DNA from: Patescibacteria group bacterium
GTDB taxonomy: Bacteria > Patescibacteriota > Minisyncoccia > Phycocordibacterales > JAKAEA01
NCBI GenBank assembly: GCA_040387855.1
Contig: JAZKCY010000001.1
Location: 381,857 to 445,856, forward strand
Direction: 5' to 3'
Length of the DNA: 64,000 nt
Positions within the stretch are counted from its first letter, which is position 1; each line of letters starts with the position of its first letter. The notes under the pieces are model-generated. The model ran no database searches and was not told the origin of the DNA. It was given only the letters and a program-made list of their open reading frames with translations. A program made the translations under genes and the position numbers. Below, in pieces: positions 10,372 through 58,404 of this stretch.

Positions 10372-12267
10372 TTATAGAAGACTCTCCGGATCAACATTTA
10401 CAGAAATATGAGGTGGAAGAGAGAGAAGCCGCTCAAGTAAGTCTTTATTGACCCATGTGCCTTGATCAAGCTTGAGAAGTGCGTGCATTACGGTCTTTTT
10501 GTTTACGGTTTCAATAAATGCAGGGAATACAAGTGGATTGTAATCTTCCAAAAGCTTTTCTACAAAGTCCATATCACTCGTTACTTGTTCCCGGGTTCCT
10601 TTAATGGTGATTTTTATGAGATTACTAAATGGTGGGTAGCTAAGCTTTTTTCGCTCTTCGATTTCTTCACGATAAAAATCCATAAGATTGCCCTTTGTGG
10701 CATAATCAAAAATACGCTGGTTGCGTGATCGAGTCTGCACTACATAAATCTTTTGAGTAATAGATCTAATCTTCAAAAGAATATTCATGATTTTTTCGTT
10801 GATACGAAAATCAGGAATAGAGAAAAGGGAATCTATAGCTGCAACACCAGAGTTTTCTACTGGTTTCTCAAGATAGGTAAGGGCCATTTCAGTACCAATC
10901 AAAATACTGCCAGGTGAGTTGTAAAATTCATTAACCACAGCCAATGCTTGCTTGTGCGTAGTAATGCTATCTTTATCCATTCTAAAAATCTTCATGTCAG
11001 GGAACATGTTTTGAATAGTATTTTCAATAAGCTCGATGCCAATACCTAGAGTTGTGAGTTTCCAACTATCACAGTTTTTACATCGTTCTTCTGCACTTCT
11101 TCGTTCACCACATCGATGACATAAGAAAAAGTTTTCTTCACCACGATGAAGAACTACAGGCGCAGTACACTTAGTACACAAAACAGTAGTTCCACAATCA
11201 CCACACACAGTCATGGGAGCTAGGCCTCGACGTGCAGCAAACAAAAACAAATTCTCATTATGATCTTTGCTTTGCTGGATCAATGCATCAAGCTCTTCGC
11301 CAATAATTCGAAAATCTGGGCGATCGAGTGTCTTGTATCGCTTCATATCTACAACAACTTCTTTTGATGTAGAAATAGATCTAAATTTAAGGGGAGCAAG
11401 CTCGGCAAGATCACCTTGCTTTGTTCGCCATAATGTTTCAACACGCAATAGATGATCTCCAAAGATAAGTTTGGCACCAATCCGAAGTGCTAAGAATTCT
11501 GCAAATCTTCGTGTGTCTACATACGGACGTATTTGAGCTTTGTATCCGTTTGAACTTTCTCGTTCCAAAATAATAGTACCAATATCAGTCCGAGGAATTC
11601 CAAGAAATGATCCTGTTGTAATAATTAAAACTGGGTGTGGTTCTTCTATAATCTTATTCCAAGTATTTAAGATCTCTTTTTTAGAAAGTGAAGAGTTTAG
11701 AACATAGGTATATTGCTCGATACCTTTTGGAAGGGTACTAAAGATGCGCTTTGTATCTTGAATAGTGGGCAAACAAAACAGCACCGACTTTTTCTTAGCA
11801 AATTGCTCGCGGATCAAACTTTTGTAGTGAGCCAATCGTTCTTCTTCATCTGCTTGAATAGTATAAGGTTCGTGTCGTTCGTTTTGATCAGGTACACTAT
11901 CGGGAATATCTTTTTGTGGGACAACTTTTTCTGCTTGTTCCAAAATTACTTTTGGTGTGACAAGTGCAAGCACACTACCTGTAGATCCTGCAAAATATTC
12001 TGCAGCATCTTGAGCTGCTTTTATAAAGCCTGGGAGGAAGAGGGGAAGGACATTGAGCTTACCAATCTTTTTAAGTGTATAGGTAGAATTTTTTAAATCA
12101 GTTTTTGCTTCAGCTGCTGATTTCATGCCAATAACAAGAGCTGGTACTTCACGGCTTCGTATAGGCACTTTTACTATTGAGCCCGGTTTGATTTCAGACG
12201 TAGTGAAGTAGGAGAGCATTTCTGCGCCTATGCCGCGCGCTATGGGAACTACGTTTACGATGTACAT
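10372..12267 (-). CDS. priA: Primosomal protein N' (PriA)-like with degenerate helicase motifs and an intact Cys-rich zinc region
   Basis: PriA-like domain order with a 4xCxxC-type region (CGDCG...CTKC...CHRCG...CKNC). There is no GxGKT Walker A, and DEEH is replaced (IILERESSNGYK aligns to the lIvDEEHdssyK block). Confidence 0.7.
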   Translation of the reverse strand: MYIVNVVPIARGIGAEMLSYFTTSEIKPGSIVKVPIRSREVPALVIGMKSAAEAKTDLKNSTYTLKKIGKLNVLPLFLPGFIKAAQDAAEYFAGSTGSVLALVTPKVILEQAEKVVPQKDIPDSVPDQNERHEPYTIQADEEERLAHYKSLIREQFAKKKSVLFCLPTIQDTKRIFSTLPKGIEQYTYVLNSSLSKKEILNTWNKIIEEPHPVLIITTGSFLGIPRTDIGTIILERESSNGYKAQIRPYVDTRRFAEFLALRIGAKLIFGDHLLRVETLWRTKQGDLAELAPLKFRSISTSKEVVVDMKRYKTLDRPDFRIIGEELDALIQQSKDHNENLFLFAARRGLAPMTVCGDCGTTVLCTKCTAPVVLHRGEENFFLCHRCGERRSAEERCKNCDSWKLTTLGIGIELIENTIQNMFPDMKIFRMDKDSITTHKQALAVVNEFYNSPGSILIGTEMALTYLEKPVENSGVAAIDSLFSIPDFRINEKIMNILLKIRSITQKIYVVQTRSRNQRIFDYATKGNLMDFYREEIEERKKLSYPPFSNLIKITIKGTREQVTSDMDFVEKLLEDYNPLVFPAFIETVNKKTVMHALLKLDQGTWVNKDLLERLLSLPPHISVNVDPESLL

Positions 12268-12336
12268 ATATTAAGCGTATTTTAGCTTAAATACGTAAGA
12301 AATAATAATTGATCTTATGTGGGTTTTATTTTGTAA

Positions 12337-13896
12337 TTAAAACTCTCTTAAGATAGAAATCTTTGCTCCTATAGAATTGAGTCTGGTAACAATATCTTCA
12401 TACCCTCTATTGATCGAGTAAATGTTTCGGAGGATAGAAGTACCAGGAGCTGCTAGCATTCCAATCAAGAGAATTGCAGCTGGGCGGAGCGCTGGAGGGC
12501 AAATTACTTCTGCAGGCTTTAGCTTTGTAGGACCAGTGATATAGAGTCGGTGTGGGTCTACAAGATTTGTATTTGCTCCGAGTTTATCTATGTCTTTTGT
12601 ATAAATAGCACGTTTTTCATATGGCCAGTCGTGAAGAAGAGTAGTTCCTTTGGCTTGTGAGGCAATGATTGCAAAGAAGGGAAGATTGTCCATGTTGAGT
12701 CCTGGAAACGGACGGCATTCAATTTTTTCTTCAAGAGCAGTAAGCTTTGATGGTGATGTTTTAATATCTACTAAATTAGTATAGCCGTTGAGAGCTTTGT
12801 ATTTTTTTGAAAGCTTGTACTTGAATCCCATCTTCTCCAATTTGAGAAGTTCTAATTCTAGAAAATCTATTGGGGCTCGTTTAATAGTGAGAGAAGAGTT
12901 TGTAACGATAGCAGTAGCTAGGAAAAACATTGCGTCGATAGGATCTTCTGAAAGGTAGTAGGTAACAGGTTTGTCGATCTTTTCGATACCATGAATGGTA
13001 AGAGTTGTTGTTCCAATTCCTTCGATCTTAACGCCACAGGCTTCTAAGAAGTAACACACTTCCTGCACCATGTAATTTGCAGATGCAAATTTAATAACAG
13101 ATGTACCAGGAATAAGTGCAGCGGCAATAACAGCATTTTCAGTTACGGTATCTCCAGATTCATAGAGCACCATTTCAACAGGCTTAAGCACAGGTGCTTT
13201 TACAAGATAATGATTTTCTTTTGCTTCGATTTCAACTCCATAATTTTCTAAAGCATAGAGATGTGGTTTTACTGTACGTGAACCAAGCTTACATCCTCCA
13301 GGCTGAGGGAGATTAAACTTCTTAAATTGGTGAATAAGTGAACCAATGAGCATCACAATAGAACGAGTCTTTTCAGCTGCCACTTTATCCATGTTCTTAA
13401 GATCAATCTTTTCTGGTGGTTTGATTTCAAGATCGTTTCCATTCCATTTAATAGATACTCCAATAGACTCAAATACTTCTATCATACGCTGCACTTCTTC
13501 GATCTTAGGAACGTTCTTAAGAGTGGTTTTGTTTTTATTTAAAAGGGAAGCGGCAAGGATACCCATGGCTCCGTTCTTTGAAGTCTTTGTAATAATTTCA
13601 CCTGAAAGCTTGTGACCTCCTTCAATTTTTACGTTCAATGCACCCTTAGATACATGGACGATATCACGATTGAGCGCATCGCTAATCTTAGCCAACATTT
13701 CGGTAGATAGGTTTTGTTCACCTCGTTCGATGCGCGCGATAGCACTTTGAGTAGTCCCTAATTTTTGAGCAAATTCATGTTGGGTAATAGACCGTTCTTG
13801 TCGCAATGCAGAAATAAGTTTTCCAATTTGTAAAAGGTTCTTATCAGCAGATGTGGGTTCGGTAGCTACTGTCTGATTTTGGGTTTCTTCAGCCAT
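12337..13896 (-). CDS. murA: Fusion protein: N-terminal XRE-family HTH domain plus UDP-N-acetylglucosamine 1-carboxyvinyltransferase (MurA)
   Basis: Start MAEETQNQ at 13896. Residues ~25-85 form an HTH_3 (LRQERSITQHEFAQKLGTTQSAIARIERGEQNLSTEMLAKISDAL). The rest is a full-length MurA including the active-site PGGCKLG Cys. The ORF track's 584-aa version includes upstream read-through. Confidence 0.8.
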   Translation of the reverse strand: MAEETQNQTVATEPTSADKNLLQIGKLISALRQERSITQHEFAQKLGTTQSAIARIERGEQNLSTEMLAKISDALNRDIVHVSKGALNVKIEGGHKLSGEIITKTSKNGAMGILAASLLNKNKTTLKNVPKIEEVQRMIEVFESIGVSIKWNGNDLEIKPPEKIDLKNMDKVAAEKTRSIVMLIGSLIHQFKKFNLPQPGGCKLGSRTVKPHLYALENYGVEIEAKENHYLVKAPVLKPVEMVLYESGDTVTENAVIAAALIPGTSVIKFASANYMVQEVCYFLEACGVKIEGIGTTTLTIHGIEKIDKPVTYYLSEDPIDAMFFLATAIVTNSSLTIKRAPIDFLELELLKLEKMGFKYKLSKKYKALNGYTNLVDIKTSPSKLTALEEKIECRPFPGLNMDNLPFFAIIASQAKGTTLLHDWPYEKRAIYTKDIDKLGANTNLVDPHRLYITGPTKLKPAEVICPPALRPAAILLIGMLAAPGTSILRNIYSINRGYEDIVTRLNSIGAKISILREF

Positions 13897-13926
13897 GAAT
13901 TTGTGGTTAGTTCTAATGCTCAACAT

Positions 13927-13944
13927 TATAGCATATATGCTATA
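13927..13944. promoter_or_regulatory. 18-bp perfect palindrome TATAGCATATATGCTATA overlapping a TATAAT -10 box upstream of HTH-murA (candidate operator)
   Basis: Perfect dyad seen directly, 30 nt upstream of the murA start. On the coding strand it reads ttgcgc-N16-tataat, with the palindrome spanning the spacer and the -10. Confidence 0.5.
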
Positions 13945-13990
13945 TGGCGCAAATATACCGATTTCCATAACTATAGTATTCTGTATACAT

Positions 13991-14335
13991 ATGCCACCTA
14001 TGAAATTTGAAGGAGCTTCGTATGATGATGAAGGGAACAAACAAGAAGATACTTCTAAAGACAAGAAAATTGAACCAGGAGAGTATCCCATGTCTACATT
14101 TGAAGAAGTAACAGATGTTATGGTTCATAGATGCAGTCCTATAATATTACAGACTCGACATATTCATCCAAACATAATAGTAGAACAGATAAAACTCGCT
14201 GGAACCTATTCTACAAAACAAATTGTCGAGATACTTAACAATTCAACGTCATTAGATTGGAATATGAAACCAGGTTTTTATAAAGCCTTGGCGTTAGAAA
14301 TTGCCGAAAGAGTAAGAAGAAATAAGCTTAGATAA
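13991..14335 (+). CDS. Hypothetical protein
   Basis: 114-aa ORF starting MPPMKFEGASYDDEGN. The longer track ORF (13895..) overlaps the murA start region, so I used the internal start. No recognisable domain. Confidence 0.35.
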   Translation: MPPMKFEGASYDDEGNKQEDTSKDKKIEPGEYPMSTFEEVTDVMVHRCSPIILQTRHIHPNIIVEQIKLAGTYSTKQIVEILNNSTSLDWNMKPGFYKALALEIAERVRRNKLR

Positions 14336-14376
14336 GTTTGATTTGTAAATTCATCAGAAATCTATATTATTGACCT

Positions 14377-15390
14377 ATGTCTATGTTTTCTAAAAAGCTC
14401 GGGATTGATTTAGGTACCGCAAATACATTGGTGTTTTTACCGGGTAAAGGGATTGTGTTAAATGAACCATCAGTAGTTGCTATTTCTGAGCAAGATAATC
14501 GGATTTTGGCAGTAGGAGCCGATGCAAAACAAATGATTGGCCGAACTCCAGACAATATTATTGCGTATCGACCAATGAAAGACGGTGTTATTGCTGATTA
14601 CCGAGTTACTGAAGCAATGCTTAGATACTATATTAATAAAGCATTAGGTAAGTGGAGTTTTTTTAAGCCTGAAGTAATGGTTTCAGTGCCAGCCGGAGTT
14701 ACATCTACAGAACGACGCGCTGTTATTGAAGCTGCAATTAAGGCTGGAGCAAAAAATGCTTATGTAGTGAAAGAGCCTATTCTTGCTGCTATCGGAGCTG
14801 GTATTTCTATTCAAGAACCTGTAGGTCGCATGATTGTTGATATTGGAGGAGGTACAACAGACGTTGCTGTGATATCTCTTGGTGGTATTGTGTCGTGTAC
14901 ATCAGTCAAAGTTGCTGGAAATAAAGTGGATACTGCAATCATAGACTATATAAAGAAGACATTTAACCTTTCTATTGGAGATAAAACCGCTGAGGATATC
15001 AAAATTCAGATTGGATCGGCTATTCCGCTTGAAGAGGAACTCTCAATGACTATCAAGGGGCGTGATTTTGTAACTGGCCTTCCACGATCTGTTGAAATTA
15101 AAACTAATGAAATCGTAAAGTGTTTGGCAAAAGAACTTCGGGAGATGATTAATGCTATTAAGACTGTATTGCAGGATACTCCACCAGAACTTGCTTCAGA
15201 TATTATTGACCAGGGAATTATTATGACGGGTGGATCATCACAATTGAGAAATCTCCCAGAACTTGTATTCCGAAGAACTGGTGTTAAAGCCACTCTTGCT
15301 GACGATGCACTCTTTTGTGTTGCAAAAGGAACTGGTATTGCACTCGAACATCTTGATACTTACAAGAAGAGTATTATATCTAAGCGATAA
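14377..15390 (+). CDS. mreB: Rod-shape/actin-like protein MreB (paralog 1)
   Basis: GIDLGTANTLV N-terminal actin-fold phosphate-1 motif. Conserved throughout. Confidence 0.85.
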   Translation: MSMFSKKLGIDLGTANTLVFLPGKGIVLNEPSVVAISEQDNRILAVGADAKQMIGRTPDNIIAYRPMKDGVIADYRVTEAMLRYYINKALGKWSFFKPEVMVSVPAGVTSTERRAVIEAAIKAGAKNAYVVKEPILAAIGAGISIQEPVGRMIVDIGGGTTDVAVISLGGIVSCTSVKVAGNKVDTAIIDYIKKTFNLSIGDKTAEDIKIQIGSAIPLEEELSMTIKGRDFVTGLPRSVEIKTNEIVKCLAKELREMINAIKTVLQDTPPELASDIIDQGIIMTGGSSQLRNLPELVFRRTGVKATLADDALFCVAKGTGIALEHLDTYKKSIISKR

Positions 15391-29545: not shown

Positions 29546-29938
29546 ATGGCTATAAATGTATCGCGTAATCGAATTGACTTTAATGATATTCGTGCGGAGT
29601 CTGCTGAATTTAGAGACAGTGCAGAAAGTGTAAATGCAATTGGTAGTGCGTCAGGTGCTGAGGCAATTGATTATTCACTGGGCAATGTCGTAACAGCAAC
29701 AACAACTGGTGCAACTGTCTGGTCTGTGACAAATCCACCTGCATCAGGAAAAGCTGGGAGTTTTACCCTTATTCTTACAAACGGCGGTAGCCAGACTCAA
29801 ACATGGATGAGTGGTACAAAATGGCCAAGTGGAGCAGCGCCAACACTTACTTCGTCAGGGATAGATATACTTACCTTTTTTACGGTTGATGCTGGTACTA
29901 CATGGTATGGAGTGTTGGCAATGAGTGCTATGGCTTAA
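29546..29938 (+). CDS. Hypothetical Thr/Gly-rich protein
   Basis: 130-aa ORF, tightly spaced within the operon. No domain recognised. Confidence 0.35.
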   Translation: MAINVSRNRIDFNDIRAESAEFRDSAESVNAIGSASGAEAIDYSLGNVVTATTTGATVWSVTNPPASGKAGSFTLILTNGGSQTQTWMSGTKWPSGAAPTLTSSGIDILTFFTVDAGTTWYGVLAMSAMA

Positions 29939-29979
29939 TATTTTTTGATTATTGCACTATGTTTGGACTAGGAGCAAAA

Positions 29980-32900
29980 ATGAGAGCAATTCAACAAACG
30001 GTTGTAGCTATTATTGATAATAGTTATCTTTTTGGTTGGGGGAAAAATACTTCCGGTCAAATTGGTAATAGCTCATTAACGAGTCAATCAAGTCCTGTTG
30101 GTCTAGGTACAACTTCTGATTGGAAAATGCTCTCTGGAGCATACACATTTTCGGCGGGAATCAAGACAAATGGGACACTATGGACATGGGGCGCTGGGAT
30201 ATTCGGAACTTTGGGGGATAATACAGATTCAGTTGCAAAATCAAGTCCAATTCAAGTTGGAACACTCAGTGATTGGGATACTGTTAGTACAGCAAAATTT
30301 CATGCTTTAGCTCGTAAAACAAATGGAACGATCTGGGGATGGGGGTTTAATGGTGGTGGTCAACTTGGCCAAAATAATATTACAGATAGATCAAGCCCAG
30401 TTCAGATTGGGACTTTAGGTACTTGGACCCATATTTTTACCGGTGGTCAAATATCAGGTGCGCGAAAAAGTGATGGAACACTGTGGTCATGGGGCCGAAA
30501 CACCTATGGGGCACTTGGAATCAATGCTGCAGGAGATAGATCAAGTCCTATTCAAATTGGAACTTTGACAACATGGGATCATATGTCTTTCGGATACCGA
30601 ACTGGATTGGCAAGAAAAACCGATGGTACCATTTGGGGATGGGGCAATAACAATCTTGGACAAATTGGTAACAGTACGGTTGTTAACAGATCAAGCCCTG
30701 GACAAATCGGTACTCTTACAACCTGGAGTAGTATTCATGCAGGGAACTTACATGGTATAGGCCGAAGGTCAGATGGTACATTGTGGGGTTGGGGTTGGGC
30801 TGGAAAAGTTGGAGATAATACTGCAACCAATAAATCAAGTCCAGTACAAATTGGAACATTAAGCTCATGGCTACATGTCGCTACTGGTTATGACCACACA
30901 CTGGCAAAAAGATCAGATGGAACTATTTGGAGTTGGGGATATGCTACATACGGTCGTTTGGGGGATAATGCCACTACTGATAGATCGAGTCCTGTGCAAA
31001 TTGGAACACTAACAGAATGGGATTCCATTTTTGCAGGGAGCAGTTCTCATTCTTCGTTTGCTTTAAAAAGATATAATCTAGGTATGTTTGCATGGGGAGT
31101 AGGTTCCCTCGGTCAAATAGGAAATAATGATGTAAGTCAACAAGATAGTCCGTTACAAGTGGGTACACTCACTTCATGGGAGGGTGTAGCTGTTGGTGCT
31201 AGTACCGTGCATGCATGGAAATCAGATGGAACACTGTGGACATGGGGTAGAAACTCATACGGTCGTTTGGGAGATAACACAACCACGAACAGATCAAGTC
31301 CAGTCCAAATTGGTACCCTTAATGTATGGAAAATGGCAGCTTCAGGTACAGGCCACTCAAGTGCTGTAAGAACTAACGGAACATTGTGGTCATGGGGATC
31401 TGGTGCAAACGGAGAAATGGGAGATAACACAGCAATTTCTAAATCAAGTCCAGTACAAGTAGGAACACTCTCAATTTGGGCAGAAACGTCCGCAGGAAGT
31501 ACATTCACCGTTGCGCGTCGAACAAATAATACTATTTGGTCATGGGGTAGTAACTTGTATGGTCGTTTGGGTCAAAGCACTACTACAAATAGATCTAGTC
31601 CAGTGCAAATTGGAACATTAAGTAACTGGTCTGGTATTTCTGCAGGAGGCCAACATGCACTAGGAATAAAAACTGACGGTGGTATTTGGGCATGGGGTCT
31701 GAACACCTCTGGACAAATGGGAGATAATACTGCTGTTACAAAATCAAGTCCTGTTCGTATTGGGACTCTTACAAACTGGAAAGGTATTTCAGCGGGTGCA
31801 TCTCACAATGTTGCGTGGAAAACTGACGGATCATTATGGGCATGGGGAATAAATACAAACGGAAGATTGGGAGATAATACTACTACAACCAGATCAAGTC
31901 CTGTGCGTATTGGGACTTTATCTGATTGGGCTTCAGCTTCTGCCCAACTAGAGCATACTATTGCTCGAAAGACAGACGGTACGCTATGGGCCTGGGGAAA
32001 GGGAGACTATGGTCAGCTTGGAGATGGAATTGCACGACTTAAGAACACACCACTTCAAATCGGTACGCTAACAAACTGGGGAACTGTATCTATGGGAGCC
32101 TCACACACCGTTGCATGGAAAACAAATAATACTATTTGGGGATGGGGAATTGGGGGCCAAGTGGGAGACAATACCGCTGTTACAAGATCAAGCCCCGTAC
32201 AAATTGGAACGCTATCTACATGGCAATCTATTGATACTGGTGATTCACATACTGTAGCTATAAAGACTGACGGTACAATGTGGGCATGGGGAGCAAACAC
32301 GTCAGGCCAAGTAGGAGACAATACGAATGTTACAAAATCAAGTCCTGTACAGATTGGAACTTTAAACACATGGGCAAGTGTGTCGGCTGGAAATATTCAC
32401 TCTATTGCTCGAAAAACAGATAGTAGTATTTGGTCATGGGGACTTGGAAGTGTGGGTGCACTTGGAGATAATACAGCCACTACCAAATCAAGCCCGGTAC
32501 GAATTGGTACACTTAATACCTGGGCAAGTGTGACTGCTGGTGGAAACCACTCTCATGCAATAAAAGCTGATGGATCATTGTGGTCATGGGGTTACAATTT
32601 TTATGGGCAATTAGGCGATAGTTCAAATGTGGCTAAATCAAGTCCTGTTCGAGTTGGTACGCTCAATGATTGGTCAATTGTATCAGCAGGAATTCAGCAT
32701 TCATTAGCAATCAAAACAAACGGGACATTGTGGGCATGGGGATTTGGAACTTCCGGACAGCTTGGAGATAATACGGGTGGAACCTTCTCAAGTCCAATTC
32801 AAATTGGTACGCTCACTACTTGGGCTGGGGTGTCTGCAGGTGCAGAACACTCTCTTGGATGGAAAGCTGATGGAACTTTGTGGGCCTGGGGCTACAATGC

Positions 32901-33174
32901 ATCCGGACAATTGGGAGACGGTACATTTACTCAATATCTTAGTCCTATTCAAGTTGGTACGGTTTCTACATGGAGTACTGCTTCAGCTGGACCAAACCAC
33001 AGTGGTGCTGTGAGAGCCGATGGGACATTATGGATGTGGGGAACTCGTCTTAATGGTAGAATCGGAGATAACAACATGCCGGGTAAATCGAGCCCAATTA
33101 AAATAGGTACCATGAACGATTGGCGTACATTGGGTAACGGTCCAAATGGACTGATGAGTATTTCAATTAAATAA
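29980..33174 (+). CDS. RCC1/BLIP-II-type beta-propeller repeat protein (about 20 repeats), no signal peptide
   Basis: About 50-aa repeats (GTLWxWGxNxxGQLGDNTxxxxSSPVQIGTLxxW) occur at regular intervals. ATG at 29980 is preceded by AGGAG. The track's longer version starts at 29902. Confidence 0.7.
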   Translation: MRAIQQTVVAIIDNSYLFGWGKNTSGQIGNSSLTSQSSPVGLGTTSDWKMLSGAYTFSAGIKTNGTLWTWGAGIFGTLGDNTDSVAKSSPIQVGTLSDWDTVSTAKFHALARKTNGTIWGWGFNGGGQLGQNNITDRSSPVQIGTLGTWTHIFTGGQISGARKSDGTLWSWGRNTYGALGINAAGDRSSPIQIGTLTTWDHMSFGYRTGLARKTDGTIWGWGNNNLGQIGNSTVVNRSSPGQIGTLTTWSSIHAGNLHGIGRRSDGTLWGWGWAGKVGDNTATNKSSPVQIGTLSSWLHVATGYDHTLAKRSDGTIWSWGYATYGRLGDNATTDRSSPVQIGTLTEWDSIFAGSSSHSSFALKRYNLGMFAWGVGSLGQIGNNDVSQQDSPLQVGTLTSWEGVAVGASTVHAWKSDGTLWTWGRNSYGRLGDNTTTNRSSPVQIGTLNVWKMAASGTGHSSAVRTNGTLWSWGSGANGEMGDNTAISKSSPVQVGTLSIWAETSAGSTFTVARRTNNTIWSWGSNLYGRLGQSTTTNRSSPVQIGTLSNWSGISAGGQHALGIKTDGGIWAWGLNTSGQMGDNTAVTKSSPVRIGTLTNWKGISAGASHNVAWKTDGSLWAWGINTNGRLGDNTTTTRSSPVRIGTLSDWASASAQLEHTIARKTDGTLWAWGKGDYGQLGDGIARLKNTPLQIGTLTNWGTVSMGASHTVAWKTNNTIWGWGIGGQVGDNTAVTRSSPVQIGTLSTWQSIDTGDSHTVAIKTDGTMWAWGANTSGQVGDNTNVTKSSPVQIGTLNTWASVSAGNIHSIARKTDSSIWSWGLGSVGALGDNTATTKSSPVRIGTLNTWASVTAGGNHSHAIKADGSLWSWGYNFYGQLGDSSNVAKSSPVRVGTLNDWSIVSAGIQHSLAIKTNGTLWAWGFGTSGQLGDNTGGTFSSPIQIGTLTTWAGVSAGAEHSLGWKADGTLWAWGYNASGQLGDGTFTQYLSPIQVGTVSTWSTASAGPNHSGAVRADGTLWMWGTRLNGRIGDNNMPGKSSPIKIGTMNDWRTLGNGPNGLMSISIK

Positions 33175-33180
33175 TATTTT

Positions 33181-35124
33181 ATGGCAACCCTTACTGAAAT
33201 TCTAGAAATATCTGGAACATTAGAAAAAGCAGAAGAAATAGCTCGGCAATTAGTAGTGCAAGATCCAACATATATGTTGGATCTTCAGCTTATATTGAGC
33301 GCTCGTGGTAAAGTTGCAGAATCTAAAAAAATTATTGAAGATCTGAGTAATAAGTTTCCCAATGATCATAGAATAGCTTTCAACCAAGGATGGCACGTAT
33401 TGAATGAAGGTGATTTACAGCGGGGAATGGAACTCATAGATCGAGGAAGAAATGTGGGGGTATTTGGTTCACCCGCACTTCAAACAGATAAGCCCTTATG
33501 GGATGGGAAAAATGCCAAAGGAAAAACTATTTTACTTCGATGTGAAGGAGGATTGGGAGATGAAATTCTTAATATTCGTTTTGCTAAAGATATAGCAGAG
33601 AGAGGTGGAACAGTTATAGTAGCTTGTGATAAAGGTTTGCAAAGCGTGTTCTCTCGAGTTTCAGGCGTCGCCAAAACTATTTCTTTAGATCACATTCAAG
33701 ATGAGTACTTTGATGCATGGGTACCTGCTATGAGCGCTGTAAGAGTGTGTGGTCACACTTATGAAACACTTCCAAGTGAAGCTTATATTACTGCTTTACC
33801 AGAGAAAATTGCAGAATGGAATAAGACTGTTAATGCTGATAATGGAGTGTTGAAAGTTGGAATACGCTGGTCTGGCAATGCAGAATTTGAACATGAACAA
33901 ATGCGAAGATTCCCTTTCAAGCATATCTTGGATGTATTTGAAACTCCCAATGCTAAATTTTTTAGTTTACAACGTGATTCGGATTTGAAAGTGTTACCTC
34001 CTGAAGTTGTCGATTTAAGTGGTCTTATGAATACATGGGAAGATACAGCAGGAGTTATTGCAAACTTAGATTTAGTAATAACTTCATGTACAAGTGTTGC
34101 TCATATGGCGGCAGCAATGGGCAAAGAAACATGGATTATTGTTCCACTAATGCCATATTATACGTGGGCTATGCCTGGGAATAAAACTCCATGGTATAAA
34201 AGCGTGACGTTGTATAGACAAGAATCAGACACAAACTGGGAAGCCTCATTTATAAAGGTACGACAAGCATTAGAAGAATCGACAACTCAAGTAATACGTA
34301 CTAGTATTGATCCAATGCAAAATCACACAAAAAAGACGCTCCATTTCGTAGCAGGACTACCGCGTTCTGGTAGTACTATGCTCATTAGTTTGCTTGCCCA
34401 AAATCCTACTATTTTCGGTGCACCCGTTTCAGGTTTGGCTGGTATTGTAAACGGAGTAAATACTAATTGGGATAAAATAGAATTTCATAAGGAAGTTCCT
34501 AATGAAGAAGCAAAGATGTATACCTTGCGAGCTATTTTAGATAGCTATCATGCTGCAACATCTAAACCAATTATCCTAGATAAAGAGCGTCATTGGATTC
34601 GTTATATTTTATTGCTTGAAAAGTTATTAGACAGAAAAGTGAAAGTAATTGTTCCTGTTCGTCCTATTGCAGAAATACTCACTTCATTTGAAGTATTGCG
34701 ACAAAAGAATCCATTAACTCTCACAATGGTGGATGAAGTACTTGGTCCGAAATCTACATTATCTACACGTTGTGATTACTTTATGAATGAAGAAGGTCCT
34801 GTAGGGAGTTGTATCAATTATACTCGTGATGCTGTCATTTCCGGCTTGAGTGATCGTTTATTATTTGTGGATTACAATAAATTTATTGCTAATCCCGAGC
34901 GTGATCTAAAACGAATATATAGTTTCTTAGAAATCCCTTATTTTGAGCATGATTTGCATAACATAAAGCAGCTTACTATGAGTGATGATTCAATATGGAA
35001 GTATCCAGGATTACATGATGTTCGATCTGTCGTATCAAAAATCTCTGCTGATCCTATAAGTGTCCTTGGTCCTGAGCTTGTAGCAAAGTTTAGTCAGGGT
35101 GAACCATGGGAAAATTGGACATAA
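33181..35124 (+). CDS. Tri-partite enzyme: TPR-like N-terminus, GT9 (heptosyltransferase-like) glycosyltransferase, and a C-terminal sulfotransferase domain
   Basis: GT9 motifs KTILLRCEGGLGDEI and DLVITSCTSVAHMAAAMGKETWII. The C-terminus has a PAPS-binding-type LPRSGSTML P-loop (5'-PSB) and a downstream basic motif. Confidence 0.6.
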   Translation: MATLTEILEISGTLEKAEEIARQLVVQDPTYMLDLQLILSARGKVAESKKIIEDLSNKFPNDHRIAFNQGWHVLNEGDLQRGMELIDRGRNVGVFGSPALQTDKPLWDGKNAKGKTILLRCEGGLGDEILNIRFAKDIAERGGTVIVACDKGLQSVFSRVSGVAKTISLDHIQDEYFDAWVPAMSAVRVCGHTYETLPSEAYITALPEKIAEWNKTVNADNGVLKVGIRWSGNAEFEHEQMRRFPFKHILDVFETPNAKFFSLQRDSDLKVLPPEVVDLSGLMNTWEDTAGVIANLDLVITSCTSVAHMAAAMGKETWIIVPLMPYYTWAMPGNKTPWYKSVTLYRQESDTNWEASFIKVRQALEESTTQVIRTSIDPMQNHTKKTLHFVAGLPRSGSTMLISLLAQNPTIFGAPVSGLAGIVNGVNTNWDKIEFHKEVPNEEAKMYTLRAILDSYHAATSKPIILDKERHWIRYILLLEKLLDRKVKVIVPVRPIAEILTSFEVLRQKNPLTLTMVDEVLGPKSTLSTRCDYFMNEEGPVGSCINYTRDAVISGLSDRLLFVDYNKFIANPERDLKRIYSFLEIPYFEHDLHNIKQLTMSDDSIWKYPGLHDVRSVVSKISADPISVLGPELVAKFSQGEPWENWT

Positions 35125-49777: not shown

Positions 49778-51484
49778 ATGAGCTCCAACGTAACAAGAAT
49801 TCGACTTATTTCTATTGCAGTAATTATTTTTGCTGGAATGCTTGTTACAAAACTATATTATGTTCAAATCGTATCAGGTGATACGTTTTCAGAGCGTGCA
49901 GATCGACAATATACTCGTCCAGTTGGAGGGGTTTTTAATCGTGGAACAGTTTTCTTCCAAGCAAAAGATGGAACACTTATGGCAGCAGCGTCACTTAAGA
50001 CTGGATACACTGTTGCAGTAAATCCAAAGCTTTTAAAAAAGCCAGATGAAGTATATGAAAAAATAAATAAACTTTTACCACTTGAAAAAGAACTTTTTAT
50101 TACTAAAGCTACAAAGTTGAATGATCCTTATGAAGAAATTGCAAAGAGAATAGAACCTGATGTTGCTGTTTCTATAGATAATTTAAATATCCCAGGTGTA
50201 AATATTTATAAAGAAAAATGGAGATACTATCCGGGTGAAAATTTGGCATCACAAGTCTTAGGCTTCGTGGGTTTTAAAGGTGATTCACTCGGTGGACGAT
50301 ACGGTCTTGAAAATCAGTATGAAAGTGTACTAAAGCGAACTGATGAAAATGTGTATGTAAACTTTTTTGCTGAAATCTTTTCAGATATTCATAAAACCTT
50401 TACTGATACAGGTACAATAGAAGGAGATATTACATCAACTATAGAACCAAATGTTCAAACTTTCGTTGAAAAAGAATTGAAAGAACTAAATGAGAAGTTC
50501 AACTCAAAGCTTACTGGGGGAATCGTGATAGACCCAAATACTGGCGAGATAGTTTCAATGGCTGCATATCCTAGCTACAATCCAAATTCATTCCAAACCG
50601 AAAAGAATGTAGGTGTGTTTACAAACCCAATGGTACAAAATGTGTACGAAATGGGTTCTATTGTAAAACCTCTCACCGTAGCTGCGGGAATCGATTCAGG
50701 TGCTATTACTGCAGATACTACCTATTATGATGCAGGTTTTCTAACTATGAATGGTAAGACTATTTATAACTACGATAAAAAAGGAAGAGGTACGGTAGAC
50801 ATGCAGCAAGTGCTCAATAAGTCTCTCAACACTGGTGTATCGTTTATAGTTAAAAAAATGGGGAATAAAAAGTTCTCACAGTATATGCTTGATTTTGGTT
50901 TGGGCGAGAGAACAGGAATAGATTTACCAAACGAATCAAAAGGATTGGTTGAAAACCTAAAGAGTACTCGAGATATCGAACATGCCACTGCGTCATTCGG
51001 GCAAGGTATTGCTATGAGCCCAATTGCTATTACACGCGCACTTTCAACCTTAGCAAACGGAGGAAAATTAATTACTCCCCATGTTGTAAAAAAGATTGAT
51101 TACAAAGTGGGTTTTTCAAAAGAGATTACGTATCCTGAAGGTAAACAAGTGTTAAAGCCTGAAACATCAAAAGAAATATCTCGTATGCTTACCGAAGTCG
51201 TAGACAAAGCTTTGCTTGAAGGTAAAGTAAAAATGGATAATTATTCTATTGCTGCAAAAACCGGAACTGCTCAAATCGCAAACGGAGGAAGTAGAGGATA
51301 TACCGATGAGAAATATCTCCACTCATTCTTTGGATATTTCCCAGCAACTAATCCCAAATTTTTAGTTTTCTTGTATACTGTAGAGCCTCAGGGTGTGGAA
51401 TATGCCTCAAACTCTCTGACTGAGCCGTTTGTGGATATTACTAAATACTTGATAAACTATTACGAAGTACCACCAGACAGATAA
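49778..51484 (+). CDS. ftsI: Peptidoglycan D,D-transpeptidase FtsI (PBP3-class)
   Basis: GSIVKPL (SxxK), SLNTG (SxN) and KTGTAQ motifs. N-terminal TM. Confidence 0.85.
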   Translation: MSSNVTRIRLISIAVIIFAGMLVTKLYYVQIVSGDTFSERADRQYTRPVGGVFNRGTVFFQAKDGTLMAAASLKTGYTVAVNPKLLKKPDEVYEKINKLLPLEKELFITKATKLNDPYEEIAKRIEPDVAVSIDNLNIPGVNIYKEKWRYYPGENLASQVLGFVGFKGDSLGGRYGLENQYESVLKRTDENVYVNFFAEIFSDIHKTFTDTGTIEGDITSTIEPNVQTFVEKELKELNEKFNSKLTGGIVIDPNTGEIVSMAAYPSYNPNSFQTEKNVGVFTNPMVQNVYEMGSIVKPLTVAAGIDSGAITADTTYYDAGFLTMNGKTIYNYDKKGRGTVDMQQVLNKSLNTGVSFIVKKMGNKKFSQYMLDFGLGERTGIDLPNESKGLVENLKSTRDIEHATASFGQGIAMSPIAITRALSTLANGGKLITPHVVKKIDYKVGFSKEITYPEGKQVLKPETSKEISRMLTEVVDKALLEGKVKMDNYSIAAKTGTAQIANGGSRGYTDEKYLHSFFGYFPATNPKFLVFLYTVEPQGVEYASNSLTEPFVDITKYLINYYEVPPDR

Positions 51485-51502
51485 TTCCAGATAATAAATC
51501 AT

Positions 51503-52813
51503 ATGAAAACGTTATTTAAGAAAGCAGTTATTTCTATTCTTAGTTGGGAGGCTCGGATGGTTTTGAAGAAATATAAACCAAAGATTGTAGGAGTAACCGG
51601 ATCAGTTGGAAAGACTTCTACAAAAGATGCTATTTACACAGTCCTTTCAGCAAAATTTAAAACTCGAAAAAGTCAGAAAAGCTTTAATAGCGAATTTGGA
51701 GTGCCGCTTACAATTTTAGGATTGCCAAATGGTTGGAATAATCCTTTTATTTGGTTGCTAAATATTATAGAGGGATTTTTGTTTTTTGTTTTGCCATTTA
51801 AATATCCCGAGTGGCTCGTACTTGAGATTGGAGCTGACATGCCTGGTGATATTAAGAAAATTACTGAATGGGTAAAACCTGATGTTTCTGTTATTACTCG
51901 TTTTGGAGATGTTCCTGTGCATGTGGAATTTTTCCCATCTATTGAAGATCTCATAAATGAAAAGGGGCATCTTGCACGAGCATTAAAGCCAGATGGAACT
52001 CTTATTTTAAATAATGATGACAAGCGTGTTATTGCTTTTGGTGAAAGTGATCTCCATAAAAAAATTACCTATGGTAGAGAATTTGGTGCACAGGTACATG
52101 CAACAGATGAACGAATTGCTTACAAGAAATATGAAAATTCAGAATTAGAATTTCCAGAGGGAATTAATTTTAAGATTAATCATGCAGGCACAAGCATACC
52201 GGCATATGTGCATGAGACACTGGGATATCAGCACATGTATCCCATCTTAGCAGCAACTGCTGTGGGTATTTCACAAGGGATGAATCTTGTTGAAATTTCA
52301 GAAGCACTAGAAAATCATCAGTCACCAAAAGGACGAATGCGGCTTATTGCAGGAAACAGAGATACTCTTATTGTAGACGATACCTACAACTCTTCTCCTG
52401 TGGCTGCTCATGCTGCACTTGAAGCACTTACTGAACTTAAACTTGCTGGAAGAAAAATCGCTGTTCTTGGAGACATGATGGAGCTTGGTGATTATTCAAT
52501 TGATGAACATAAAAAGATAGGGGAAGCAGCTGCAAAGACTGTTGATTTGTTTGTGGCTGTGGGTATTCGAATGCGAGGTGCTGCAGAGGCTGCGCTTGAT
52601 GCACAGATGGATGAAATGAGTGTTATGCAGTTTGATACATCAGTTGAAGCCGCACAGTTCTTAGAGAAAATAATTAAGCCCGGAGATATTGTGCTTATTA
52701 AAGGCTCTCAGTCTATGCGTATGGAACGAGCAGTAGAAGAAATCATGAGACATCCAGAACATGCAGAAGATCTCTTAGTACGCCAGGATAAACAGTGGAT
52801 TGCTAAAAAGTAG
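51503..52813 (+). CDS. murF: UDP-N-acetylmuramoyl-tripeptide--D-alanyl-D-alanine ligase MurF
   Basis: VGVTGSVGKTSTKD P-loop and the Mur ligase middle and C-terminal domains. Confidence 0.85.
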   Translation: MKTLFKKAVISILSWEARMVLKKYKPKIVGVTGSVGKTSTKDAIYTVLSAKFKTRKSQKSFNSEFGVPLTILGLPNGWNNPFIWLLNIIEGFLFFVLPFKYPEWLVLEIGADMPGDIKKITEWVKPDVSVITRFGDVPVHVEFFPSIEDLINEKGHLARALKPDGTLILNNDDKRVIAFGESDLHKKITYGREFGAQVHATDERIAYKKYENSELEFPEGINFKINHAGTSIPAYVHETLGYQHMYPILAATAVGISQGMNLVEISEALENHQSPKGRMRLIAGNRDTLIVDDTYNSSPVAAHAALEALTELKLAGRKIAVLGDMMELGDYSIDEHKKIGEAAAKTVDLFVAVGIRMRGAAEAALDAQMDEMSVMQFDTSVEAAQFLEKIIKPGDIVLIKGSQSMRMERAVEEIMRHPEHAEDLLVRQDKQWIAKK

Positions 52814-58295: not shown

Positions 58296-58404
58296 TTTGT
58301 TATTATATCCTGGATAGTCAGACTACTCAATGAATATTTCATGAAATATTTCCATTTTTCGTACGACTATAGTAGTGTAATACTTCTATTCTATATATAA
58401 ATAT

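What the first reader, a model, noticed from the sequence alone, without database searches (positions are those of the whole stretch)
12337..13944. MurA fused to an N-terminal XRE-type HTH, with an 18-bp perfect palindrome over its own -10 box
A complete MurA (catalytic Cys in PGGCKLG) carries a ~90-aa N-terminal extension containing a textbook HTH_3 motif. Thirty nucleotides upstream of the start codon lies the perfect dyad TATAGCATATATGCTATA. It spans the spacer and the TATAAT of a ttgcgc-N16-tataat promoter. The arrangement suggests autoregulation: the first committed peptidoglycan enzyme may also act as a DNA-binding repressor of its own gene, directly linking enzyme level to transcription.
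Basis: partly seen in the sequence, partly recalled or inferred. Interest (0 to 1): 0.75.

Follow-up and report, generated by a model that had tools for sequence, protein, structure and literature searches.

The report
MurA enzyme fused to its own repressor
In a large group of tiny uncultured bacteria (Paceibacteria), the first enzyme of cell-wall synthesis, MurA, carries a DNA-binding domain, and a matching palindromic DNA site lies on its own promoter, so the enzyme most likely switches off its own gene.

Summary
The gene lies on the minus strand (12337-13896) and encodes 519 aa: an XRE-type HTH_3 domain, a short linker and a complete MurA with all catalytic residues. The 18-bp perfect palindrome (13927-13944) lies 30 nt upstream of the ATG. 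It overlaps an extended -10 element (TGcTATAAT).

The palindrome alone is not statistically exceptional in this window. Comparative evidence is what carries the case:
- 79 of 80 related species keep the fusion, with no conserved internal start.
- Those 79 also keep the same 16-bp core at the same promoter position, while the flanking DNA is unconserved.
- The one orthologue that lost the HTH also lost the palindrome.
- A Thr/Ser change in the recognition helix co-varies with a symmetric G:C to T:A change in both half-sites, in several separate lineages.
- In metagenomes the same 18-mer sits upstream of unrelated genes that encode homologous HTH proteins, including antitoxins of Gp49-type toxin modules.

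Best reading: a bifunctional enzyme and autorepressor, whose DNA-binding domain and operator were probably captured together from an antitoxin-like repressor. I found no description of it in the searchable literature, and databases name it plain MurA. DNA binding, repression and any control by MurA ligands remain untested.

The parts
12337..13896 (-). HTH-MurA coding sequence (519 aa plus stop codon)
   Evidence: ORF and translation. Pfam HTH_3 plus EPSP_synthase. NCBIfam MurA subfamily above its cut-off.
13660..13851 (-). XRE-type helix-turn-helix domain (aa 16-79; Pfam HTH_3 aa 28-79)
   Evidence: The AlphaFold2 model has four helices at aa 16-34, 39-46, 50-57 and 65-74, with pLDDT about 80-87. 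Invariant residues R32, T38, Q39, A43, Q50, S51, A54, R55, E57, G59, Q61, N62.
13726..13755 (-). Predicted recognition helix and its lead-in, TTQSAIARIE (aa 48-57)
   Evidence: AF2 helix 50-57. Residue 49 (Thr or Ser) co-varies with operator positions 4 and 13. The same GT[TK]QSxI[AS]R motif occurs in stand-alone HTH proteins next to the same palindrome.
13633..13674 (-). Linker (aa 75-88) with the conserved pattern [ILV][VIL]x[LVI][SA]xG
   Evidence: Low pLDDT at aa 80-83. Column counts over 80 loci show no conserved Met and no stop.
12340..13632 (-). MurA (UDP-GlcNAc enolpyruvyl transferase) domain, aa 89-519
   Evidence: Full-length alignment to solved MurA structures. Foldseek target-normalised TM up to 0.93 to MurA structures. 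Invariant K107, R178, C202, R207, D403, R429, R471.
13291..13293 (-). Codon of the catalytic Cys202 (equivalent to E. coli Cys115; the E. coli numbering is from established knowledge)
   Evidence: PGGCKLG aligns with PGGCAIG of solved MurAs. Invariant in 60 homologues.
13927..13944 (.). 18-bp perfect palindrome TATAGCATATATGCTATA (16-bp conserved core 13928-13943): predicted operator
   Evidence: Core present in 79 of 80 related loci. Information-content island. PWM score 30.9 bits against 6.1 for the next best site in the 64 kb window.
13925..13933 (-). Extended -10 promoter element TGcTATAAT (TG at 13933-13932, hexamer at 13930-13925)
   Evidence: Read from the sequence. T at the last hexamer position in 76 of 80 loci although it lies outside the dyad symmetry. 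The start codon is 6-11 nt downstream of the hexamer in 42 of 80 loci.
13947..13952 (-). Candidate -35 hexamer TTGCGC (weak, 3 of 6 matches)
   Evidence: Read from the sequence. Not called by the promoter scan. Only weak T-richness at this position in relatives.
13897..13918 (-). Inferred 5' leader (about 22 nt, no Shine-Dalgarno motif). The transcription start near 13918 is inferred from the -10 position, not measured.
   Evidence: Geometry.

Best explanation
The gene encodes a bifunctional protein. The C-terminal 430 residues are a catalytically competent MurA, the first committed enzyme of peptidoglycan precursor synthesis.

The N-terminal roughly 75 residues are an XRE/Cro-type helix-turn-helix domain. 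Two copies of it, in a protein dimer, probably bind the two half-sites of the palindrome ATAGCATA|TATGCTAT.

That site spans about -26 to -9 of the gene's own promoter. It covers the spacer, the TG of the extended -10 and most of the -10 hexamer, so occupancy should exclude RNA polymerase. The expected result is negative autoregulation: more MurA protein gives less murA transcription.

The domain and its operator were probably acquired together from an autorepressing antitoxin-like XRE gene that uses the same operator.

Shown here: the fusion, its conservation, the intact active site, the operator's conservation and promoter position, co-loss, and co-variation.

Inferred: DNA binding, dimeric binding and repression.

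Speculative: that MurA ligands (UDP-GlcNAc, PEP, UDP-MurNAc) modulate DNA binding.
For: Fusion is real and conserved
- All 120 best homologue clusters carry PF00275 plus PF01381 at about 500-520 aa.
- 79 of 80 species-level genome loci are fused. In the 80 fused sequences (79 loci plus the window) the junction is ungapped, with 0 stops and no more than 6 Met at any junction column.
- About 200 clusters at 50% identity match the N-terminal 135 aa at E<1e-10, and most of the 150 listed span the HTH-MurA junction.

Enzyme is intact
- Full-length alignment to solved MurAs, with the equivalents of K22, R91, C115, R120, D305, R371 and R397 invariant.
- Confident AF2 model, with Foldseek target-normalised TM 0.83-0.93 to MurA structures.

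Operator
- The 16-bp core is present with at most 4 mismatches in 79 of 80 loci, and is exact in about half.
- Information content is 1-2 bits at positions 0-19 and about 0 in the flanks. The left half, which has no promoter role, is as conserved as the right half.
- In 556 kb of loci, only one other site with at most 2 mismatches lies away from a murA upstream region.
- It is the only site in the 64-kb window by PWM scan.

Promoter geometry
- The start codon lies 6-11 nt after the -10 hexamer in 42 of 80 loci. This fits leaderless transcripts and fixes the -10 assignment.

Co-loss
- L039 has the same mreB/murA/priA synteny and a MurA 71% identical, but no HTH and no palindrome. It is nested inside the fused clade.

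Co-variation
- With Thr at residue 49, G4/C13 is found in both half-sites in 54 of 63 sequences. With Ser, it is found in 1 of 17.
- Fisher p = 1e-9, not corrected for phylogeny.
- There are 6 parsimony changes and 8 separate Ser groups on a tree built from the MurA domain only.

Independent pairing
- Of 122 exact 18-mer sites in metagenome contigs, 76 lie just upstream of operons encoding a homologous HTH_3 protein with the same GT[TK]QS helix. These are solo regulators, Gp49-toxin/HTH-antitoxin pairs, or HTH-MurA.
- As a control, 0 of 10 sites in viral contigs showed this pairing.
Against: - No experiment exists: binding, stoichiometry and the sign of regulation are all inferred.
- The AF2 model shows only four helices. 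The usual fifth, dimerising helix of XRE proteins is replaced by a low-confidence linker, and MurA enzymes are generally treated as monomers, so the dimerisation surface is unknown.
- The palindrome alone is not significant in the window.
- The right half of the palindrome is also constrained by the promoter, so part of its conservation has a second cause.
- The co-variation statistic is not phylogenetically corrected and rests on an NJ tree.
- Whether these genomes hold a second, unfused murA could not be checked.
- The TIGR01072 equivalog cut-off is not reached, so this MurA is divergent.
Confidence: 0.75

Rival explanations
1. The HTH is a protein-protein module, not a DNA binder. Like the XRE-type HTH of RodZ, which binds MreB, it would tether MurA to MreB filaments. 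The conserved murA-mreB adjacency would then reflect a physical partnership.
For: mreB is the divergent upstream neighbour in 64 of 81 loci, and in 31 of them its start lies only 37-105 nt from the palindrome. That RodZ uses a Cro/C1-type HTH to bind MreB is established knowledge, not tested here.
Against: There is no match to the RodZ-type HTH_25 family; the best match is HTH_3. This reading does not explain the conserved palindrome, the co-loss in L039 or the helix/operator co-variation. The same HTH type and palindrome occur in toxin-antitoxin loci with no mreB. The two functions are not mutually exclusive.
Confidence: 0.07
2. The palindrome is a real operator, but a different, separately encoded XRE protein (for example an antitoxin with the same specificity) binds it. 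The MurA N-domain would be inactive on DNA or bind elsewhere.
For: Stand-alone HTH proteins with the same recognition helix and the same operator are common in metagenomes. They could coexist with HTH-MurA in these genomes.
Against: MurA's own residue 49 tracks the operator variant in several lineages. Loss of the fused HTH coincides with loss of the site. No second homologous HTH is encoded in the 64-kb window (tblastn) or was seen in the +/-3 kb flanks.
Confidence: 0.07
3. The protein is mainly a transcription factor that uses a MurA-like domain as a ligand sensor for a wider cell-wall regulon, and may or may not retain catalysis. In some lineages it would control murB, murC, an L,D-transpeptidase/M23 gene or mreB as well as itself.
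For: - The same operator with the same -10 arrangement lies between HTH-murA and a divergent murB in L166.
- It lies 9 nt upstream of a Mur ligase next to murD in L169.
- It lies 20 nt upstream of a YkuD plus Peptidase_M23 protein in L128.
- Many loci have a compact shared murA-mreB intergenic region.
Against: These are three anecdotes among about 46 non-HTH sites whose other neighbours are heterogeneous. In the window, a PBP (49778-51484) and a Mur ligase (51503-52813) have no site. All catalytic residues are invariant, which argues that catalysis is retained.
Confidence: 0.15
4. The conserved sequence is only a strong extended -10 promoter whose symmetry is incidental, and the HTH is an evolutionary relic.
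For: The right half of the palindrome coincides with TGnTATAnT. A perfect 18-bp palindrome is not rare by chance in this window.
Against: The left half (positions 1-8) carries 1-2 bits per position with no promoter role. Changes are symmetric in both half-sites. The HTH has 12 invariant residues across 60 homologues. The same palindrome recurs next to homologous HTH genes in unrelated contexts.
Confidence: 0.03
5. The fusion is an assembly, frameshift or gene-calling artefact, and two separate genes exist.
For: None found. One related caution: the ATG inside the palindrome (catATATGct), when in frame, produces spurious longer N-termini ('MLY...') in mechanical ORF calls for some relatives.
Against: The reading frame is continuous in the 79 fused relatives from many studies and assemblers, and in the window. 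There is no conserved internal start.
Confidence: 0.01

Closest known systems
Bifunctional enzyme-repressors ('trigger enzymes' with a fused DNA-binding domain): BirA (biotin ligase plus winged HTH), PutA (ribbon-helix-helix plus proline dehydrogenase), NadR (HTH plus NMN adenylyltransferase)
   Same: [quoted passage not shown] The operator sits in the promoter of its own gene or pathway gene. The logic is enzyme-level homeostasis.
   Different: The enzyme family (MurA/EPSP synthase fold) and the DNA-binding family (XRE HTH_3) are both different. No such fusion is known for any peptidoglycan enzyme, as far as I could find. For BirA and PutA, ligand or redox control of DNA binding is demonstrated; here it is only a hypothesis. 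These comparisons rest on established knowledge and were not tested here.
XRE-type antitoxins and autorepressors of type II toxin-antitoxin modules (HigA-like partners of Gp49/PF05973 toxins; HipB, PezA, MqsA C-domain)
   Same: The N-domain is homologous: NCBIfam's best HTH hit is the Y4mF/HipB-type antitoxin, and the HMM built from the N-domain gives E 1e-21 to 1e-23 against Gp49-linked antitoxins. The 18-bp operator is identical and sits just upstream of the operon. The recognition helix GT[TK]QSxI[AS]R is shared.
   Different: There is no toxin gene next to murA, and the divergent 81-aa ORF has no Pfam match. The C-terminal partner is a housekeeping enzyme fused in cis, not a toxin bound in trans.
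Canonical MurA (E. coli / Enterobacter cloacae MurA; Gram-positive MurAA)
   Same: Full-length fold and all catalytic and ligand-binding residues.
   Different: Canonical MurAs have no N-terminal domain. Their known control is post-translational: feedback by UDP-MurNAc, and ClpCP proteolysis through ReoM/PrkA in Firmicutes (established knowledge). It is not transcriptional self-repression.
XRE HTH fused to shikimate kinase (NCBIfam PRK08154, 'anaerobic benzoate catabolism transcriptional regulator')
   Same: An XRE HTH at the N-terminus of a small-molecule enzyme. The MurA N-terminus aligns to residues 10-89 of that model (E 1.6e-8).
   Different: The enzyme partner is different, and that family is poorly characterised. 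No shared operator was examined.
RodZ (Cro/C1-type HTH that binds MreB)
   Same: An XRE-superfamily HTH in a cell-wall morphogenesis protein, with a genomic link to mreB.
   Different: There is no HTH_25 match, no transmembrane segment and no RodZ C-domain. The evidence here points to DNA recognition.

Membership tests
MurA (UDP-N-acetylglucosamine 1-carboxyvinyltransferase) | EPSP-synthase/MurA two-domain inside-out alpha/beta barrel fold over the full length | tested here: met
   Pfam PF00275 covers aa 92-506 and profile positions 2-417 of 417. AF2 pLDDT is mostly above 90 in this region. Foldseek target-normalised TM is 0.83-0.93 to solved MurAs.
MurA (UDP-N-acetylglucosamine 1-carboxyvinyltransferase) | Curated family score thresholds | tested here: inconclusive
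   NCBIfam subfamily PRK09369 scores 315.1 against a cut-off of 297 (met). Equivalog TIGR01072 scores 311.7 against 392.7 (not met). AroA scores only 78 bits. The result is a divergent MurA that is clearly closer to MurA than to AroA.
MurA (UDP-N-acetylglucosamine 1-carboxyvinyltransferase) | Catalytic loop Cys (E. coli C115) and the K22, R91, R120, D305, R371 and R397 equivalents | tested here: met
   C202, K107, R178, R207, D403, R429 and R471 align to these positions in solved MurAs. They are invariant in 60 homologues. The E. coli numbering is from established knowledge.
MurA (UDP-N-acetylglucosamine 1-carboxyvinyltransferase) | Enolpyruvyl transfer from PEP to UDP-GlcNAc; fosfomycin sensitivity | not testable with these tools
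   Needs an enzyme assay.
XRE / Cro-C1 HTH_3 DNA-binding domain | Sequence match above the Pfam gathering score | tested here: met
   PF01381 scores 55.9 bits against a cut-off of 23, at aa 28-79.
XRE / Cro-C1 HTH_3 DNA-binding domain | Compact helical bundle with a helix-turn-helix (helices 2 and 3) | tested here: met
   AF2 places helices at aa 16-34, 39-46, 50-57 and 65-74. The fifth helix typical of the family is not predicted.
XRE / Cro-C1 HTH_3 DNA-binding domain | Binds a palindromic operator as a dimer | not testable with these tools
   Indirect support only: the conserved palindrome, co-variation and co-loss.
Bifunctional enzyme/autorepressor (trigger enzyme with a fused DNA-binding domain) | Intact enzyme and DNA-binding domain in one conserved polypeptide | tested here: met
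Bifunctional enzyme/autorepressor (trigger enzyme with a fused DNA-binding domain) | Cognate operator in the promoter of its own gene or pathway gene | tested here: met
   The operator overlaps the extended -10 in the 79 fused relatives and in the window.
Bifunctional enzyme/autorepressor (trigger enzyme with a fused DNA-binding domain) | DNA binding modulated by the enzyme's substrate, product or catalytic state | not testable with these tools
   No data. The linker is short and of low confidence, so coupling is possible but unproven.
Type II toxin-antitoxin module (Gp49/HigB-like toxin plus XRE antitoxin) | Antitoxin-type HTH with an operator upstream of the operon | tested here: met
   The N-domain is homologous to Gp49-linked antitoxins and the 18-mer is identical.
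Type II toxin-antitoxin module (Gp49/HigB-like toxin plus XRE antitoxin) | Adjacent toxin gene | tested here: not met
   There is no Gp49 or other toxin family next to murA. The neighbours are a priA-like gene, an 81-aa ORF with no Pfam match, and mreB. The locus is therefore not a toxin-antitoxin module; only the HTH and operator are shared.
RodZ-like MreB-binding HTH | HTH_25 domain followed by a transmembrane segment and the RodZ C-domain | tested here: not met
   No HTH_25 match at E up to 0.01. The C-terminal part is MurA.

The most novel reading that the evidence does not exclude
HTH-MurA is a metabolite-sensing trigger enzyme. The large open-to-closed movement of MurA on binding UDP-GlcNAc, PEP or the feedback ligand UDP-MurNAc would change how the tethered HTH domains pair on the operator. 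Transcription of murA would then track the state of the cell-wall precursor pool directly. In some lineages this could extend to murB, a murC-like ligase, an L,D-transpeptidase/M23 gene and the divergent mreB. It would be the first enzyme-repressor known for peptidoglycan synthesis. It would have arisen by capture of a complete antitoxin-type repressor-plus-operator cassette, and it may be the main cell-wall regulator in an entire class of ultra-small bacteria that have few transcription factors.
Probability: 0.3. Interest if true: 0.85.

Novelty: new variant of a known kind. Interest (0 to 1): 0.66.

Why it matters
How the Candidate Phyla Radiation / Patescibacteria regulate anything is largely unknown. 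They have small genomes, few transcription factors and almost no cultured representatives.

This finding gives a concrete, testable regulatory circuit for an essential pathway across a whole class. The operator is defined, the promoter can be predicted, and there is a specificity rule (Thr49 with G:C, Ser49 with T:A) that can be checked with short oligonucleotides and a roughly 90-aa domain expressed in E. coli.

It would add the first committed peptidoglycan enzyme, which is also the fosfomycin target, to the short list of enzymes that repress their own genes.

It also gives a clear example of a DNA-binding domain and its binding site moving together from a toxin-antitoxin-type repressor onto a housekeeping gene.

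In practice, databases currently label these proteins as plain MurA, so the regulatory half is invisible to annotation-based studies.

Tried and rejected
- Sigma-70 consensus scan of 12200-14500. It did not call the murA promoter because TTGCGC matches at only 3 of 6 positions. I therefore rely on the extended -10 and on comparative geometry.
- Palindrome statistics in the window alone. Not significant; I dropped this as an argument.
- Literature. No paper in the held library describes an HTH-MurA fusion or contains the operator sequence. Candidate hits (an XRE-motif paper and the lipocone paper) matched on author names or unrelated text. One search failed on a term-syntax error.
- PDB sequence and fold searches. 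No solved structure combines the two domains, and the N-domain hits only generic XRE proteins.
- Plasmid collection tblastn with the N-domain. It returned only uncharacterised 'helix-turn-helix transcriptional regulator' hits at 40-55% identity. I did not follow these up.
- Viral contig scan for the 18-mer. Ten sites, none next to a homologous HTH. Useful only as a negative control.
- Search for further operator sites. None in the window, and essentially none within +/-3 kb of murA in relatives. A genome-wide regulon could not be tested because only short flanks can be fetched.
- The DnaA-box-like motif upstream of the operator in relatives. It is real there but absent from this window, and I left it unresolved.
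- A toxin-antitoxin reading of the locus. Rejected because no toxin gene is adjacent.
- One script mistranslated the L169 murC fragment in the wrong frame. This was corrected through.
Full report
WHAT IS THERE

The feature lies on the minus strand. An ORF runs from the ATG at 13896 to the stop at 12337 and encodes 519 aa. Pfam finds HTH_3 at aa 28-79 (E 4e-15) and EPSP_synthase at aa 92-506 (E 1e-45). NCBIfam places the C-terminal part in the MurA subfamily PRK09369 (315 bits, cut-off 297). It falls below the stricter TIGR01072 equivalog cut-off and scores far above AroA.

The MurA part aligns end to end with solved MurA structures. The residues matching E. coli K22, R91, C115, R120, D305, R371 and R397 are K107, R178, C202, R207, D403, R429 and R471. 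All are invariant in 60 homologues. The E. coli numbering is from established knowledge.

An AlphaFold2 model (mean pLDDT 86.8) has three parts: a four-helix HTH domain (aa 16-74), a low-confidence linker (aa 75-85) and a confident MurA fold. Foldseek matches the MurA fold to solved MurAs with target-normalised TM 0.83-0.93. No PDB entry combines the two domains.

The palindrome TATAGCATATATGCTATA is at 13927-13944, 30 nt upstream of the ATG. It is unique in the window even with 3 mismatches allowed. On the coding strand the region reads TTGCGC, 16 nt, TATAAT, and the bases before the hexamer give an extended -10, TGcTATAAT. The -35 candidate matches at only 3 of 6 positions and was not called by the consensus scan. 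A perfect 9+9 palindrome is not unusual in this AT-rich window: 3 are observed, 0.44 are expected, and 35% of shuffles contain at least one. The window alone therefore proves little.

IS THE FUSION REAL?

Yes. All 120 best protein clusters (70-90% identity; Parcubacteria/Paceibacteria MAGs from NCBI, JGI, ENA and Logan) carry both domains at about 500-520 aa, and their sources name them simply MurA. A scan of one genome per species returned 288 relatives. I examined the best 80 (59-82% identity).

Seventy-nine of those 80 are fused. Across the 80 fused sequences (79 loci plus the window) the junction aligns without gaps, has no stop codon and has no column with more than 6 Met. There is therefore no conserved internal start. 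A search with the N-terminal 135 aa against representatives at 50% identity found about 200 clusters at E<1e-10. Most of the 150 listed span the junction, down to about 40% identity.

IS THE PALINDROME FUNCTIONAL?

Five independent lines say yes.

(a) Conservation. The 16-bp core ATAGCATATATGCTAT is present upstream of the gene in 79 of 80 loci with at most 4 mismatches, and is exact in about half. Anchored on the core, information content is 1-2 bits per position from position 0 to 19 and about 0 in both flanks. The left half has no promoter role, yet it is as conserved as the right half. Position 19 is the final T of TATAnT and lies outside the dyad symmetry. It is T in 76 of 80 loci, which marks the -10 hexamer.

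(b) Geometry. In 42 of 80 loci the start codon lies 6-11 nt after that hexamer. This is where transcription should begin, so these are leaderless mRNAs. In 35 loci the leader is 18-37 nt, usually without a Shine-Dalgarno motif; the window has 28 nt. The operator therefore spans about -26 to -9, a repressing position.

(c) Specificity. In 556 kb of related loci, only one further site with at most 2 mismatches lies away from a murA upstream region. A PWM built from the relatives scores the murA site at 30.9 bits. The next best site in the 64 kb window scores 6.1, which is chance level.

(d) Co-loss. L039 keeps the mreB/murA/priA synteny and a MurA 71% identical to the query, but has neither HTH nor palindrome. 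It is nested inside the fused clade.

(e) Co-variation. Residue 49 sits at the start of the recognition helix (G-T-T/S-Q-S).
- When residue 49 is Thr, operator positions 4 and 13 are G and C in both half-sites in 54 of 63 sequences.
- When it is Ser, they are T/A or C/A in 14 of 17 sequences, mixed in 2, and G/C in 1.
- Fisher p = 1e-9, not corrected for phylogeny.
- On an NJ tree built from the MurA domain only, Ser appears in 8 separate groups (6 parsimony changes), and there is one apparent reversal (L066) with a matching operator.

AN UNEXPECTED EXTENSION

About 8 of the contigs are HTH-MurA loci.

Seventy-six sites lie immediately upstream of an operon that encodes an HTH_3 protein homologous to the MurA N-domain:
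- In 45, a short HTH protein is the first gene. These include about 95-aa stand-alone regulators.
- In 26, the HTH protein comes second, downstream of another gene. In the cases checked, that gene is a Gp49-like (PF05973) toxin, which makes the HTH the antitoxin.
- In 5, the HTH protein is more than 300 aa and is an HTH-MurA.

Nearly all of these proteins share the helix GT[TK]QSxI[AS]R[IL]E. The Gp49-linked antitoxins resemble the MurA N-domain right through its C-terminal strand-like segment. An example is ...GTTQSAVARIEQGKQNLTVDMLAKIAKGLNRRLEIELV against ...GTTQSAIARIERGEQNLSTEMLAKISDALNRDIVHVS. In viral contigs the 18-mer occurs 10 times, never next to such an HTH. The association is therefore not produced by the method.

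The operator and the HTH thus form a pre-existing matched pair, typical of autorepressing antitoxins. The simplest history is that such a cassette (promoter, operator and HTH) was captured in frame at the 5' end of murA in an ancestor of these Paceibacteria.

MECHANISM

Most likely, two HTH domains bind the two half-sites, whose centres are about one helical turn apart. This blocks RNA polymerase access to the extended -10 and gives negative autoregulation of MurA.

- Shown: the anatomy, conservation, co-loss, co-variation and the shared pairing.
- Inferred: binding, dimerisation and repression.
- Unknown: the dimer interface. The usual fifth helix is missing and the linker is of low confidence. 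The linker does keep a conserved alternating hydrophobic pattern, which corresponds to the C-terminal strand of the related antitoxins.
- Speculative: ligand control through the open/closed states of MurA or the known tight UDP-MurNAc complex (established knowledge).

RIVALS

A RodZ-like role, with the HTH binding MreB, is suggested by the conserved divergent mreB (64 of 81 loci). It has no sequence support, since there is no HTH_25 match, and it does not explain the DNA evidence.

A separate trans-acting XRE protein could in principle use the site. MurA's own helix tracks the operator, which argues against this.

A wider cell-wall regulon is a lead, not a result. The same operator-promoter unit occurs in three further contexts:
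- between HTH-murA and a divergent murB (L166);
- 9 nt upstream of a Mur ligase beside murD (L169);
- 20 nt upstream of a YkuD plus M23 protein (L128).

The other sites without an adjacent HTH have unrelated neighbours. In the window, a PBP and a Mur ligase have no site.

The promoter-only and artefact readings are contradicted.

COMPARISON WITH KNOWN SYSTEMS AND NOVELTY

Functionally the protein resembles BirA, PutA and NadR, which are enzymes carrying their own DNA-binding domain. Its DNA-binding half belongs with XRE antitoxins. Its enzyme half is a divergent but complete MurA. It is not a toxin-antitoxin module, because no toxin is adjacent, and it is not RodZ.

Eight literature searches, two paper look-ups and one search for the operator sequence found no description of it. 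The library covers only open-access papers, so this is absence of evidence. I rate it a new variant of a known kind. Interest is moderately high because it offers a defined, easily testable circuit for an essential pathway in a poorly understood bacterial radiation.

Noticed in passing
L001-L080, 9-28 nt 5' of the palindrome on the murA sense strand; absent upstream of murA in the window: A DnaA-box-like 9-mer, TTATCCACA (at most 1 mismatch), occurs just upstream of the operator in 30 of 80 related loci. About 0.01 per locus is expected. In the window its count equals chance. It could be a DnaA site, or part of the divergent mreB promoter read on the other strand (TGTGGATAA).
   Followed up: partly
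L081-L200 (metagenome contigs), e.g. L144 1928, L127 3661, L094 400, L081 819: The same 18-bp palindrome is the upstream element of Gp49-like toxin / HTH antitoxin operons and of about 95-aa solo XRE proteins ('MKRQHLDFEVWEKEALKDPK...'). These occur in contigs of 26-61% GC and share the helix GT[TK]QS. The operator/HTH pair is therefore widespread and apparently undescribed.
   Followed up: partly
L169 1955-1972; L166 1435-1452; L128 1348-1365: The identical operator plus -10 unit also precedes other cell-wall genes: a Mur ligase (murC-like) beside murD, a divergent murB opposite HTH-murA, and a YkuD (L,D-transpeptidase) plus Peptidase_M23 protein. This is a possible wider peptidoglycan regulon in some lineages.
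   Followed up: partly
L039 2935-4332: One orthologue in the same mreB/murA/priA synteny has a 445-aa MurA without the HTH, a roughly 60-nt intergenic region and no palindrome. It is nested within the fused clade, so this is a secondary loss.
   Followed up: yes
window 13933-13931 (ATG inside the palindrome) and 13926-13924; relatives L002, L058, L060, L071, L072, L077: The palindrome contains an ATG (catATATGct). When it is in frame with the gene, mechanical ORF calls give spurious N-terminal extensions beginning 'MLY...'. In the window an in-frame ATG also lies within the -10 box. This is an annotation hazard for the family.
   Followed up: partly
window 14090-14335 (+), between murA and mreB: An 81-aa ORF lies between murA and mreB. 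It has no Pfam match and no counterpart in any of the 80 related loci. In many relatives mreB is directly divergent from murA. The ORF may be a lineage-specific insertion or not a gene at all.
   Followed up: partly
window 33260-33285: A 26-bp perfect palindrome, AAGATCCAACATATATGTTGGATCTT, has the same CATATATG centre as the operator. It lies inside the coding ORF 33181-35124. It is the longest perfect palindrome in the window and remains unexplained.
   Followed up: no
window 58333-58350: Another 18-bp perfect palindrome, AATATTTCATGAAATATT. Its context was not examined.
   Followed up: no
window 29902-33174 (+): A 1090-aa ORF is made of about 20 tandem repeats of roughly 50 aa ('GTLWSWGxNxxGQLGDNTxxxxSSPVQIGTL'). 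The repeats resemble RCC1/beta-propeller repeats. It was not analysed.
   Followed up: no
window 49778-52813 (+): A class B penicillin-binding protein (Transpeptidase plus PBP_dimer) and an adjacent Mur ligase lie in the window with no operator-like site.
   Followed up: yes
L001-L080 and window, murA start region: About half of the species have the murA start codon 6-11 nt after the -10 hexamer, implying leaderless mRNAs. The longer leaders almost never carry a Shine-Dalgarno motif (3 of 38).
   Followed up: partly
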